A DNA stretch of 64,000 nucleotides from NCBI GenBank assembly GCA_964356705.1, contig CAYHIN010000001.1, forward strand, positions 3,066 through 67,065, read 5' to 3'. The position numbers were made by a program, and so were the translations under genes. A model generated the notes under the pieces. The model worked only from the letters and a program-made list of their open reading frames with translations, had not been told where the DNA came from and searched no databases. This stretch comes from an uncultured Gammaproteobacteria bacterium (lineage in GTDB: Bacteria > Patescibacteriota > Microgenomatia > CAZETR01 > Amesbacteraceae). Numbering within the stretch: the first letter of the stretch is position 1; the number at the start of each line of letters is the position of its first letter. Below, in pieces: positions 60,471 to 61,329 of the stretch.

Positions 60471-60541
60471 GACCCGGATGGGAGTCGAACCCATTTATAC
60501 GGTTTTGCAGACCGCTCTCTGACCGATCGAGCACCGGGTCA
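60471..60541 (-). tRNA. tRNA-Cys (GCA)
   Basis: On the minus strand: GACCCGG acceptor, anticodon loop CTGCAAA, T-arm GGGTTCGACTCCC, CCGGGTC 3' acceptor. CCA not encoded. Confidence 0.7.
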
Positions 60542-60558
60542 AACTTCCTAATTCTATC

Positions 60559-61329
60559 ATGCTGTCGAAGCTAACATTGTGCTTGAAATTCGGTAAAGTT
60601 TCGGTATACAATTATTTGGTGCACACAGATCCTCGGGGCGGACACAATCGCAAGAGTATAAACAAGGATTTCTTTAAGACATGGTCTCCAAATATGGCTT
60701 ATGTTTTAGGGTTGATTTGTGCCGACGGAGCCGTGGAAGACGTCCGTAAGTCCTCTCGAACGTGTTATTTTCAGATTACTAGCACGGACCTATTCTTTCT
60801 GTTCAACGTTAGGAAGTCTTTGGGCTCCAGCCACAACATCTACTTAAAAGAATTACGAACCGTTCAAATCAGAGGCGGAAAGACATATATCCCCTCCAGC
60901 TGCTATTCACTCCGAGTAGGCTGCAAATCTATGGTTCAGGATCTAATAAATCTCGGGGTTACTCCTCGCAAGTCCTTAAGGCTACAACTTCCAAAGATCC
61001 CGGATATTTATTTTCCTCATTTCTTGCGAGGCTATTTCGACGGCGATGGATGTGTAAATATCAGTAAGAAAATCAGAGCAAGGAAACAGTTTCTAAATTT
61101 AATTTTCACTAGCGGTTGCAAGGAATTCTTAGAAAAACTCTCAATGAAGCTCGAAAACATGGGTAAATCCACTCGTGTCTACAGAAATGGTAGTGCTTAT
61201 CGATTAAGCTACAAGGGTCAGCGAGCTATCAACGTTTTGTCTTTTATGTATAAAGATCTTGCGGAGTATTTATTCATGATCCGAAAATTCGACAGATTCT
61301 CCAGCTACCTAAATATGTATCCGACTTGA
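60559..61329 (+). CDS. LAGLIDADG-family homing endonuclease (two motifs, free-standing)
   Basis: LGLICADGAV and FLRGYFDGDGCV. The true start may be an internal Met (MAYVLG). Confidence 0.7.
   Translation: MLSKLTLCLKFGKVSVYNYLVHTDPRGGHNRKSINKDFFKTWSPNMAYVLGLICADGAVEDVRKSSRTCYFQITSTDLFFLFNVRKSLGSSHNIYLKELRTVQIRGGKTYIPSSCYSLRVGCKSMVQDLINLGVTPRKSLRLQLPKIPDIYFPHFLRGYFDGDGCVNISKKIRARKQFLNLIFTSGCKEFLEKLSMKLENMGKSTRVYRNGSAYRLSYKGQRAINVLSFMYKDLAEYLFMIRKFDRFSSYLNMYPT

What the first reader, a model, noticed from the sequence alone, without database searches (positions are those of the whole stretch)
60471..61329. Free-standing double-motif LAGLIDADG homing endonuclease abutting tRNA-Cys
Both LAGLIDADG motifs are present (LGLICADGAV and FLRGYFDGDGCV), in a gene divergent from tRNA-Cys with less than 20 nt of spacing. 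There is no host intron or intein in view. It may be a remnant of a mobile intron or integrated element, or a domesticated endonuclease; tRNA genes are classic integration targets.
Basis: partly seen in the sequence, partly recalled or inferred. Interest (0 to 1): 0.5.

Follow-up and report, generated by a model that had tools for sequence, protein, structure and literature searches.

The report
Mobile homing-endonuclease gene beside tRNA-Cys
The ORF is an intact free-standing LAGLIDADG homing-endonuclease gene from a large, apparently undescribed lineage in CPR/Patescibacteria bacteria that sits next to the tRNA-Cys gene and is present or absent among close relatives, which marks it as a selfish mobile gene and not an intron remnant or a domesticated host protein.

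Summary
tRNA-Cys(GCA) lies at 60469-60540 (-). A divergent ORF encodes a two-motif LAGLIDADG protein, with both catalytic Asp residues conserved across the family. The likely start is GTG 60619 (236 aa), not ATG 60559, so the spacer is 78 nt, not 18 nt.

It is neither an intron or intein remnant nor part of an integrated element. It is a roughly 780-nt cassette (promoter-like element plus ORF) from a CPR-wide family. In 52 of 86 related loci the gene lies within 2-102 nt of tRNA-Cys. Sister clades sit beside tRNA-Asp, tRNA-Met or tRNA-Leu.

There are three architectures: 5' of the tRNA on the same strand, 3' on the same strand, and 5' divergent (the window's). Close HE+/HE- pairs show 776-814-nt insertions ending at the tRNA 5' or 3' end. 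Syntenic relatives of the window, including its closest one, have M23 | tRNA-Cys | PEGA with no endonuclease gene.

The ORFs are about 95% intact and dN/dS is 0.05-0.17. The AlphaFold model (pLDDT 91.7) matches monomeric homing endonucleases.

Best reading: an active free-standing homing endonuclease spreading by break repair at tRNA-Cys borders. Cleavage activity and target site are untested. I found no description of this family in the searched literature. I rate it a new variant of a known kind.

The parts
60469..60540 (-). tRNA-Cys (anticodon GCA), 72 nt, discriminator U73, CCA not encoded. This is the gene the endonuclease family is tied to.
   Evidence: ARAGORN; Rfam RF00005 at 54.4 bits. 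D-loop and T-loop are canonical G18G19/U55.
60551..60559 (-). Extended -10-like element of the tRNA-Cys promoter (TGaTAGAAT), 10 nt upstream of tRNA +1. It overlaps the fortuitous ATG at 60559.
   Evidence: Read from the sequence. The 20 nt upstream of the tRNA align with endonuclease-less relatives L144 and L141 (60469-60560, 86% identity). The same TGnTAnAAT box sits at the same distance in other relatives. Function is inferred.
60561..61340 (+). Approximate extent of the inserted endonuclease cassette (about 780 nt) relative to the empty arrangement M23 | tRNA-Cys | PEGA seen in relatives. Each boundary is known only to within about 20 nt.
   Evidence: Homology with empty-site relatives stops near 60560. 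The PEGA-proximal -10 region is retained near 61349. The size matches the 776-814-nt insertions measured in HE+/HE- pairs.
60583..60612 (+). Promoter-like site TTGAAA-18-TACAAT, ending 6 nt before GTG 60619. This would give a leaderless or nearly leaderless mRNA.
   Evidence: Consensus scan, 10 of 12 matches. Homologous TTGAC(T/A)-N17-TAnAAT-N6-8-start elements precede the gene in L001, L002, L005, L007, L009, L010, L011, L013, L016, L020 and L070. Function is inferred.
60619..61329 (+). LAGLIDADG endonuclease ORF, 236 aa from GTG 60619. The longest ORF starts at ATG 60559 and gives 256 aa.
   Evidence: ORF list. Pfam LAGLIDADG_3 E=4.9e-12. PHROG 4645 'endonuclease' E=4.8e-45. 866 homologues at 42-59% identity. 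Family N-termini support the GTG start. AlphaFold2 pLDDT 91.7, pTM 0.89. Best Foldseek PDB matches are I-Tsp061I, bI3 maturase, I-AniI and I-SceI.
60706..60735 (+). LAGLIDADG motif 1 (LGLICADGAV). The catalytic Asp is D36 in 236-aa numbering, at the C-terminal end of helix 24-36.
   Evidence: The Asp is invariant in 18- and 88-sequence alignments. Helix position from the model.
61021..61056 (+). LAGLIDADG motif 2 (FLRGYFDGDGCV). The catalytic Asp is D143, at the C-terminal end of helix 129-143.
   Evidence: RGYFDGDGC is invariant in 18 sequences. D143 is conserved in at least 90% of 88 sequences. Helix position from the model.
61362..62270 (+). Flanking host gene for a PEGA + SH3_3 protein, preceded by promoter-like TTGAAT-17-TATAGT (61326-61354), whose -35 overlaps the endonuclease stop codon.
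   Evidence: Pfam PEGA 4e-13 and SH3_3 6e-9. Promoter scan. It is the syntenic neighbour of tRNA-Cys in Microgenomates relatives, whether or not they carry the endonuclease gene.
60173..60466 (-). Flanking 97-aa membrane-like ORF that starts 2 nt after the tRNA 3' end. It occupies the position where 3'-side cassettes sit in relatives. Found only in this organism.
   Evidence: ORF list. tblastn finds it only in L111, a contig of the same organism. Only a weak, sub-threshold Pfam hit.
59369..60142 (-). Flanking host gene for an M23 peptidase, the syntenic anchor on the other side of the tRNA.
   Evidence: Pfam Peptidase_M23 3.6e-32. Synteny in L001, L002, L007, L090, L099, L142 and L144.

Best explanation
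The ORF is a free-standing, single-chain LAGLIDADG homing-endonuclease gene carried on a roughly 780-nt cassette that appears to bring its own promoter and produce a leaderless mRNA. It belongs to a lineage spread across CPR/Patescibacteria whose members sit next to the single tRNA-Cys gene.

Proposed mechanism (inferred). The enzyme makes a double-strand break at a tRNA-Cys border in a genome that lacks the cassette. Repair from a cassette-bearing copy, for instance DNA taken up by these bacteria, copies the gene in. This is 'intronless homing', as for phage T4 seg and mob genes. The insertion itself disrupts the recognition site, which protects the carrier. The essential tRNA next door hinders imprecise deletion of the cassette.

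What is shown: the protein family and fold; conserved catalytic residues; the tRNA association; three insertion architectures; gene-sized presence/absence differences with boundaries at the tRNA ends; strong purifying selection. What is inferred: nuclease activity, the target site, the direction of transfer, and promoter use.

In the window the cassette lies between the tRNA-Cys promoter and the PEGA promoter, divergent from the tRNA. This is a rarer arrangement, derived within the clade whose cassettes normally sit at the tRNA 3' end.
For: (1) Family and fold: Pfam LAGLIDADG_3; AlphaFold2 pLDDT 91.7 with two alpha-beta-beta-alpha-beta-beta-alpha halves; the closest solved structures are monomeric homing endonucleases; phage relatives are annotated as intron or mobile endonucleases.

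(2) Active-site residues: both motif Asp residues and RGYFDGDGC are invariant or nearly so.

(3) tRNA association: 52 of 86 loci have tRNA-Cys within 2-102 nt. The tRNA-Cys-linked proteins form one clade, separate from a tRNA-Asp/Met-linked clade.

(4) Mobility. L145 versus L140: a 780-nt insertion exactly at tRNA -1/+1, downstream of a shared promoter. L117 versus L127: 776 nt. L158 versus L091: 811 nt. L007 versus L155: an 814-nt cassette starting at the tRNA 3' end, with flanks 95-98% identical.

(5) Empty sites. Of 79 contigs with a similar tRNA-Cys, 22 carry the gene and 25 lack it despite at least 800 nt on both sides. Syntenic empty sites (PEGA | tRNA-Cys | M23) occur in L090, L099, L142 and L144. 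L142 is the window's closest relative, with GroEL 79% identical.

(6) No tRNA-based immunity: HE+ and HE- alleles can carry identical tRNA-Cys sequences (L117/L127, L007/L155), and L158/L091 are identical over the 71 nt called in L091. Any target must therefore span the insertion junction.

(7) Selection and decay: dN/dS is 0.05-0.17 in 26 of 27 pairs (the nearly identical pair L095/L109 gives 0.48 on almost no substitutions), including pairs with dS of 0.13-0.8. About 95% of copies are intact. A few are interrupted (L024, L038, L115, L088, L147), as expected for a gain, decay and loss cycle.

(8) The cassette is on different sides of the tRNA in the window and in its closest protein relative L001 (59% identity).
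Against: No cleavage activity or target site has been demonstrated. No HE-minus allele of the window's own species was found; L111 is the same HE+ organism.

The protein evolves more slowly than its neighbours. Against L001 it is 59% identical, compared with M23 45%, PEGA 34% and GroEL 71%. The deep tree roughly follows host groups. Both patterns would also suit a vertically inherited gene with a host function.

For the window's divergent arrangement the junction sequence (a promoter spacer) is not conserved between species. This copy may therefore have arrived by a local rearrangement and not by site-specific homing.

Inversions of the tRNA, or of the tRNA-endonuclease module, among relatives (L142 and L010 against L144 and the window) are not explained by simple homing. 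The NJ tree has no support values.
Confidence: 0.65

Rival explanations
1. Domesticated LAGLIDADG protein. It is a vertically inherited DNA- or RNA-binding factor with a host role linked to tRNA-Cys, such as regulating its promoter or maintaining the locus. It would be kept beside its target the way many regulators are.
For: Strong purifying selection. About 95% of copies are intact. The protein is more conserved than its neighbours M23 and PEGA. Adjacency to the same tRNA is kept in three different orientations. Precedents from general knowledge are WhiA and HO.
Against: The distribution is patchy. 25 of 47 decidable tRNA-Cys contigs lack the gene, including the closest syntenic relative L142 and a whole clade of about 35 contigs. 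Pairs with identical tRNA-Cys, and one pair with 95-98% identical flanks, differ only by the cassette. Both catalytic Asp residues are retained, unlike in WhiA. Interrupted copies exist.
Confidence: 0.15
2. Remnant of a mobile group I intron or an intein. The endonuclease ORF survived after the ribozyme or the splicing domains were lost.
For: Relatives in phages are intron-encoded. NCBIfam gives weak hits to intein-containing proteins. Patescibacteria carry group I introns in tRNA and rRNA genes (PMC13011429, PMC11270868). A sister-clade copy lies directly upstream of an intron-containing tRNA-Asp (L080).
Against: No intron model matches in 60100-61700 even at E<=1. The tRNA-Cys is uninterrupted. 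HE+/HE- comparisons show that the inserted unit is only the ORF with or without its promoter, lying outside the tRNA. There is no surrounding host ORF or intein splicing block.
Confidence: 0.04
3. Cargo of a larger integrated element (island or prophage remnant) that used tRNA-Cys as its attachment site.
For: tRNA genes are classic attachment sites (general knowledge). The window also carries lineage-specific extra DNA on both sides: the 97-aa ORF at 60173-60466 and about 1.4 kb at 62271-63699. L155 has a 3.7-kb block at the same tRNA 3' end.
Against: There is no integrase or recombinase nearby. There is no direct repeat of the tRNA end and no significant flanking repeats. The measured insertions are 776-814 nt and contain only the endonuclease gene.
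Confidence: 0.03

Closest known systems
Free-standing homing endonucleases of T4-like phages (seg and mob genes, 'intronless homing'), especially SegB in the T4 tRNA gene cluster (PMC2988022)
   Same: The gene is not inside an intron or intein. It is inserted between conserved genes, is present or absent among relatives, has its own promoter, and lies next to tRNA genes (SegB sits between tRNA-Arg and tRNA-Ile and targets the tRNA intergenic region).
   Different: SegB is a GIY-YIG enzyme in a phage genome. This one is a LAGLIDADG enzyme in bacterial chromosomes. It is tied to one specific tRNA across a very broad host range, with insertion boundaries at the tRNA ends. Its activity and inheritance bias are untested.
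LAGLIDADG homing endonucleases encoded in rRNA insertion sequences and group I introns of CPR bacteria (PMC11270868)
   Same: Same enzyme superfamily and same host group. Both target highly conserved structural-RNA genes.
   Different: Those genes lie inside introns or insertions within 16S and 23S rRNA genes. This one lies outside the RNA gene, with no ribozyme. That paper does not mention tRNA-adjacent copies.
Monomeric double-motif LAGLIDADG enzymes with solved structures: I-Tsp061I (2dch), I-AniI (1p8k), bI3 maturase (2ab5), I-SceI (1r7m), I-DmoI-derived E-DreI (1mow)
   Same: Same pseudo-dimeric fold with two LAGLIDADG helices, each ending in an acidic residue.
   Different: Sequence identity is only 13-20%. 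The family has its own N-terminal DPRGGHNRK...FFK.WSP motif. It is free-standing, not intron-encoded.
Collaborative homing (free-standing endonuclease next to an intron-bearing gene, e.g. F-CphI/psbA and mobE/nrdB; from general knowledge)
   Same: In the sister clade, a free-standing copy sits directly upstream of tRNA-Asp, which carries an endonuclease-less group I intron in L080.
   Different: The window's tRNA-Cys has no intron, so this model does not apply to the window itself.
Domesticated LAGLIDADG proteins (WhiA, HO; from general knowledge)
   Same: Free-standing, conserved and under purifying selection.
   Different: The catalytic residues are retained and the gene is patchy among close relatives.

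Membership tests
LAGLIDADG homing endonuclease, single-chain two-motif type (Pfam LAGLIDADG_3) | Significant match to the family profile | tested here: met
   PF14528 at 46.4 bits against a cut-off of 22.5, E=4.9e-12. PHROG 4645 E=4.8e-45.
LAGLIDADG homing endonuclease, single-chain two-motif type (Pfam LAGLIDADG_3) | Two LAGLIDADG helices, each ending in a conserved acidic residue | tested here: met
   LGLICADG (D36) and GYFDGDG (D143). Both Asp residues are invariant in 18 sequences; D36 is invariant and D143 is conserved in at least 90% of 88 sequences. Both lie at helix C-termini in the model.
LAGLIDADG homing endonuclease, single-chain two-motif type (Pfam LAGLIDADG_3) | Pseudo-dimeric alpha-beta-beta-alpha-beta-beta-alpha x2 fold | tested here: met
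   AlphaFold2 pLDDT 91.7, pTM 0.89. Foldseek probability 1.00 to I-Tsp061I, I-AniI and I-SceI, TM-score 0.57-0.66.
LAGLIDADG homing endonuclease, single-chain two-motif type (Pfam LAGLIDADG_3) | Site-specific cleavage of a long (about 20-bp) DNA target leaving 4-nt 3' overhangs | not testable with these tools
   Needs an in vitro cleavage assay.
Free-standing homing endonuclease gene (intronless homing) | Not embedded in an intron or intein | tested here: met
   No intron model hit. The tRNA is intact. There is no enclosing ORF.
Free-standing homing endonuclease gene (intronless homing) | Gene-sized presence/absence polymorphism at a fixed site among related genomes | tested here: met
   776-814-nt insertions at the tRNA-Cys 5' or 3' end in four pairs. 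22 HE+ against 25 HE- contigs. Syntenic empty sites in L090, L099, L142 and L144.
Free-standing homing endonuclease gene (intronless homing) | Cleaves the endonuclease-less allele near the insertion site and is inherited preferentially, with co-conversion of flanks | not testable with these tools
   One hint only. L117 (HE+) and L127 (HE-), from sister samples, are 100% identical over the tRNA plus downstream sequence (207 nt) but 77% identical upstream.
Intron-encoded homing endonuclease (group I intron) | ORF lies within a group I ribozyme that interrupts a host gene | tested here: not met
   Rfam finds no intron at the gathering threshold or at E<=1. The insertion lies outside the tRNA.
Domesticated LAGLIDADG protein (WhiA-like) | Loss of catalytic acidic residues and uniform vertical conservation in the lineage | tested here: not met
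   Catalytic Asp residues are retained. The gene is absent from close syntenic relatives.
tRNA-targeting integrative element | Integrase plus a direct repeat of the tRNA end flanking the insertion | tested here: not met
   No recombinase is found in the flanking ORFs. No meaningful repeats.

The most novel reading that the evidence does not exclude
CPR/Patescibacteria host a guild of compact free-standing LAGLIDADG endonuclease cassettes, at least some of which seem to carry their own promoter. These cassettes home to the ends of specific tRNA genes: tRNA-Cys here, and tRNA-Asp, tRNA-Met and tRNA-Leu in sister lineages.

On this reading they use the conserved tRNA gene as half of their recognition site. 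They wire themselves into the tRNA transcription unit. In the 5'-side type the gene sits between the tRNA promoter and tRNA +1, and its stop codon often lies inside the tRNA. They would also drive local rearrangements such as tRNA inversions. In the tRNA-Asp lineage they may mobilise the endonuclease-less group I introns recently described in Patescibacteria tRNA genes.
Probability: 0.35. Interest if true: 0.75.

Novelty: new variant of a known kind. Interest (0 to 1): 0.6.

Why it matters
Free-standing homing endonucleases are well studied in phages and organelles but little described in bacterial chromosomes. In CPR bacteria, LAGLIDADG enzymes have been reported only inside rRNA insertions.

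A lineage faithful to one tRNA gene across hundreds of species, with clean HE+/HE- allele pairs, offers three things. It is a natural system for studying how selfish nucleases persist in tiny genomes. It is a possible explanation for how endonuclease-less tRNA introns spread in Patescibacteria. It is also a source of compact LAGLIDADG scaffolds whose natural targets can be narrowed down from the empty alleles.

For annotation, these genes should not be labelled 'intein-containing protein', as some records do.

Tried and rejected
1. Group I intron or intein remnant. Rejected: Rfam finds nothing at the gathering threshold or at E<=1, and there is no enclosing ORF.

2. Integrated element with att repeats. 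Rejected: the repeat search in 60100-61500 gave only short chance matches, and there is no recombinase.

3. Immunity through tRNA sequence variants. Rejected: HE+ and HE- alleles share identical tRNA-Cys sequences (L117/L127, L007/L155; L158/L091 over the 71 nt called).

4. A single inversion to turn the L001 arrangement into the window's. Rejected: it does not work. Relative to empty sites, both are plain insertions on opposite sides of the tRNA.

5. The palindromic acceptor stem offering the same half-site at both tRNA borders. Not adopted: this predicts a convergent 3'-side arrangement, which was never observed.

6. A metagenome scan with an alignment of PEGA neighbours. Failed: there was no conserved stretch to search with. 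I replaced it with a tRNA-Cys DNA pattern scan.

7. Paralogues in the window. None found.

8. Literature. Searches for LAGLIDADG with tRNA-Cys, Patescibacteria, candidate phyla radiation, Parcubacteria or Microgenomates, and for free-standing endonucleases near tRNA genes, found no description of this family. The library covers open-access papers only.
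Full report
**What is in the window**

tRNA-Cys(GCA) occupies 60469-60540 on the minus strand (ARAGORN; Rfam 54.4 bits). On the plus strand the longest ORF runs 60559-61329, 256 aa. Pfam LAGLIDADG_3 matches above its cut-off (46.4 against 22.5 bits). PHROG 4645 'endonuclease' matches at 4.8e-45.

No group I intron model matches, either in the whole window at the gathering threshold or in 60100-61700 at E<=1. The ORF is not part of a larger reading frame.

The start codon is probably GTG 60619 (236 aa), for three reasons. First, fifteen of 17 aligned homologues begin M-x-x-DPRGGHN, which corresponds to that position. Second, the ATG at 60559 overlaps an extended -10-like box of the tRNA promoter (TGaTAGAAT, 60551-60559, minus strand). 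That box lies in the stretch that aligns with endonuclease-less relatives. Third, a promoter-like TTGAAA-18-TACAAT (60583-60612) ends 6 nt before the GTG. The real spacer is then 78 nt, not 18 nt.

**The protein**

An AlphaFold2 model built on 88 homologues is confident (pLDDT 91.7, pTM 0.89). It shows two alpha-beta-beta-alpha-beta-beta-alpha halves, with D36 and D143 at the C-terminal ends of the two LAGLIDADG helices. The best PDB matches are monomeric homing endonucleases and a maturase: I-Tsp061I, bI3, I-AniI, I-SceI and E-DreI, at 13-20% identity.

Both Asp residues and RGYFDGDGC are invariant in 18 sequences; in 88 sequences D36 stays invariant and D143 is conserved in at least 90%. The family also has its own N-terminal motif, DPRGGHNRK..FFK.WSP.

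Phage relatives at 28-36% identity include proteins annotated as mobile-intron or intein endonucleases. A scan of 1.84 billion cluster representatives gives 59 clusters at E<=1e-30 and 4,975 at E<=1e-10.

**The family is tied to tRNA genes**

The word-indexed protein search returned 866 homologues at 42-59% identity. The few that carry source names are from Woesebacteria, Daviesbacteria and Microgenomates.

In six loci of close homologues, tRNA-Cys lies about 50 nt upstream on the same strand as the gene. The synteny there is PEGA/SH3 | tRNA-Cys | endonuclease | ... | M23 | GroEL.

A scan of one genome per species returned at least 493 relatives, and the 80 best were kept. By record title 62 of these 80 are CPR/Patescibacteria, 10 are unclassified 'bacterium' MAGs and 8 carry other taxon names, including one Rossellomorea, which I take to be mislabelled bins. 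Across the 86 loci then in hand:
- 52 have tRNA-Cys within 2-102 nt.
- 17 have tRNA-Asp, 8 tRNA-Met and 1 tRNA-Val.
- 8 have no detected tRNA. Several of these are at contig ends or near group I introns.

A neighbour-joining tree separates a tRNA-Cys clade from a tRNA-Asp/Met clade. Within the tRNA-Cys clade there are three architectures:
- Type A: the gene lies 5' of the tRNA on the same strand (37 loci, labelled mostly Parcubacteria-type).
- Type B: the gene lies 3' of the tRNA on the same strand (12 loci, labelled mostly Microgenomates-type).
- Type C: the gene lies 5' of the tRNA and is divergent (L010, L011, L016 and the window).

The window's closest protein relative, L001 (59% identity), is type B.

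**The gene is mobile**

A metagenome scan with a tRNA-Cys DNA pattern, chosen independently of the endonuclease, gave 79 contigs. Of these, 22 carry the gene, 25 lack it with at least 800 nt on both sides of the tRNA, and 32 have flanks too short to decide.

L111 is the window's own organism, with 99.9% identity over 1,600 nt. It comes from Hainich groundwater.

Syntenic empty sites (PEGA | tRNA-Cys | M23) occur in L090, L099 and L144. Partial versions occur in L098, L141, L146 and L152. An empty site also occurs in L142, the window's closest relative (GroEL 79% identical, against 71% for L001). About 35 contigs of another clade, in which tRNA-Cys sits beside GroEL, all lack the gene.

Close pairs give exact boundaries:

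| HE+ locus | HE- locus | Insertion | Position |
|---|---|---|---|
| L145 | L140 | 780 nt | Exactly at tRNA -1/+1, downstream of a shared TTGAAA-N17-TAAAAT promoter |
| L117 | L127 | 776 nt | 5' end of the tRNA |
| L158 | L091 | 811 nt | 5' end of the tRNA |
| L007 | L155 | 814 nt | Starts at the tRNA 3' end; flanks are 95-98% identical, and L155 has a 3.7-kb five-gene block in its place |

The tRNA-Cys sequences of HE+ and HE- partners can be identical. The tRNA sequence therefore does not distinguish carrier from target, and any recognition site must span the junction that the insertion disrupts.

**Anatomy of the cassette**

Type B and type C copies carry a conserved upstream element, TTGAC(T/A)-N17-TAnAAT, followed 6-8 nt later by GTG or ATG. 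This is a promoter placed to give a leaderless mRNA. It is an inference from sequence only.

Type A copies have no promoter of their own. They sit between the resident tRNA promoter and tRNA +1. In many of them the stop codon lies 18-22 nt inside the tRNA, often the TAG of an A18 D-loop variant. The tRNA then appears to depend on transcription through the endonuclease gene, which is also an inference.

In the window, homology to empty relatives runs from the tRNA to about 60560. The PEGA-side promoter (61326-61354) is retained. The inserted unit is therefore about 60561-61340, roughly 780 nt, lying between the two divergent host promoters.

**Selection**

Twenty-seven pairs at 70-99% amino-acid identity were compared. 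dN/dS is 0.05-0.17 in 26 of them, including pairs with unsaturated dS of 0.13-0.8. The nearly identical pair L095/L109 gives 0.48 on almost no substitutions. About 95% of copies are uninterrupted. L024, L038, L115, L088 and L147 are broken.

Against L001, the endonuclease (59% identity) is more conserved than M23 (45%) and PEGA (34%) and less conserved than GroEL (71%).

**Interpretation**

The combination fits a free-standing homing endonuclease that spreads by break repair ('intronless homing'), as described for T4 seg and mob genes. That combination is an intact catalytic site, strong constraint, gene-sized presence/absence at fixed points, several insertion positions around the same tRNA, and occasional decayed copies.

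SegB, which lies between T4 tRNA genes and targets the tRNA intergenic region, is the nearest precedent (PMC2988022).

A domesticated host factor is the main rival. It fits the constraint but not the patchiness among close relatives. An intron or intein remnant and an integrated element are excluded by the tests above.

Four things remain unexplained:
- The actual target site.
- How the window's divergent arrangement arose, since its junction is a poorly conserved promoter spacer.
- Why the tRNA alone (L142 against L144) and the tRNA-endonuclease module (L010 against the window) are found in both orientations between PEGA and M23.
- Whether transfer is frequent. The NJ tree is unsupported, and its deep structure roughly follows host groups.

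**Literature**

CPR LAGLIDADG endonucleases have been described within rRNA insertions (PMC11270868, PMC7143001, PMC11809585). Group I introns in Patescibacteria tRNA-Asn and tRNA-Asp were recently reported to lack LAGLIDADG genes (PMC13011429). None of the papers found mentions endonuclease genes flanking tRNA genes. The library holds open-access papers only, so 'undescribed' is provisional.

**Verdict**

The feature is real. It is a new variant of a known kind: a free-standing LAGLIDADG homing-endonuclease lineage specialised on tRNA-Cys borders in CPR bacteria. Interest is 0.6. Confidence in the homing-endonuclease explanation is 0.65.

Noticed in passing
L001-L165, tRNA-Cys genes (alignment; counts): In 96 distinct tRNA-Cys sequences, D-loop G18 with T-loop U55 (47 sequences) and A18 with G55 (43 sequences) covary without exception. 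The G55 variant (GTGCAAA T-loop) is also seen sporadically in tRNA-Gly, Met, Phe, Leu and His. The window's tRNA has the canonical pair.
   Followed up: partly
Type A loci, e.g. L012, L014, L019, L022, L029, L032, L039, L045, L054: The endonuclease ORF runs into the downstream tRNA-Cys and stops 18-22 nt inside it, often at the TAG created by the A18 D-loop variant. RNase P processing would then remove the stop codon from a co-transcript.
   Followed up: partly
L080 1240-1590; also L068 3625-3846, L072 3574-3837, L036 6185-6395: In the sister clade the endonuclease gene sits directly upstream of tRNA-Asp. In L080 that tRNA-Asp carries a group I intron in the anticodon loop. Other loci have group I introns nearby. 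This is a possible case of collaborative homing for the endonuclease-less tRNA introns of Patescibacteria (PMC13011429).
   Followed up: partly
L142 9374-9445 versus L144 1337-1409; L010 3850-4702 versus window 60469-61329: The tRNA-Cys gene alone (in empty sites) and the divergent tRNA-endonuclease module are found in both orientations between the same PEGA and M23 neighbours. No flanking repeats explain the inversions.
   Followed up: partly
window 60173-60466 (-): A 97-aa membrane-like ORF starts 2 nt after the tRNA-Cys 3' end, which is where type B cassettes sit in relatives. It was found only in this organism (L111). Only weak, sub-threshold Pfam and PHROG hits.
   Followed up: partly
window 62271-63699: About 1.4 kb is absent from relatives L142, L144 and L141, where the PEGA gene is followed directly by the homologue of window 63700-63991. 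It holds a 271-aa ORF (62879-63694, -) and a 116-aa ORF (62192-62542, +), neither with a Pfam or PHROG match.
   Followed up: partly
L155 173-3917: In a genome with flanks 95-98% identical to L007, the 814-nt endonuclease cassette at the tRNA-Cys 3' end is replaced by a 3.7-kb block of five ORFs. The tRNA 3' border seems to be a hotspot for variable DNA.
   Followed up: partly
L095 1378-2037 and L109 6751-7410; L088 4445-5087 and L147 5833-6244: A further LAGLIDADG lineage lies just 3' of tRNA-Leu, which itself follows tRNA-Cys. The L088 and L147 copies are split into two pieces and look degenerate.
   Followed up: no
window 1049-1458 (-): tmRNA gene (Rfam RF00023, 89.9 bits).
   Followed up: no
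window 58556-59255 (+): A 60-aa ORF overlaps the start of a PIN-domain ORF (Pfam PIN 3.6e-8). The layout resembles a VapBC-type toxin-antitoxin pair. It was not checked further.
   Followed up: no
window 61326-61362 and relatives (L144 spacer): The PEGA gene, like the endonuclease gene, has a -10-like box 6-7 nt before a GTG start. Leaderless transcripts may be common in this organism.
   Followed up: no
L077 (Rossellomorea vietnamensis, NZ_LIXZ01000005.1): Among the top 80 loci, the only homologue from a cultured, clearly non-CPR organism. It has 36% identity and no adjacent tRNA, and it branches outside both tRNA-linked clades.
   Followed up: no
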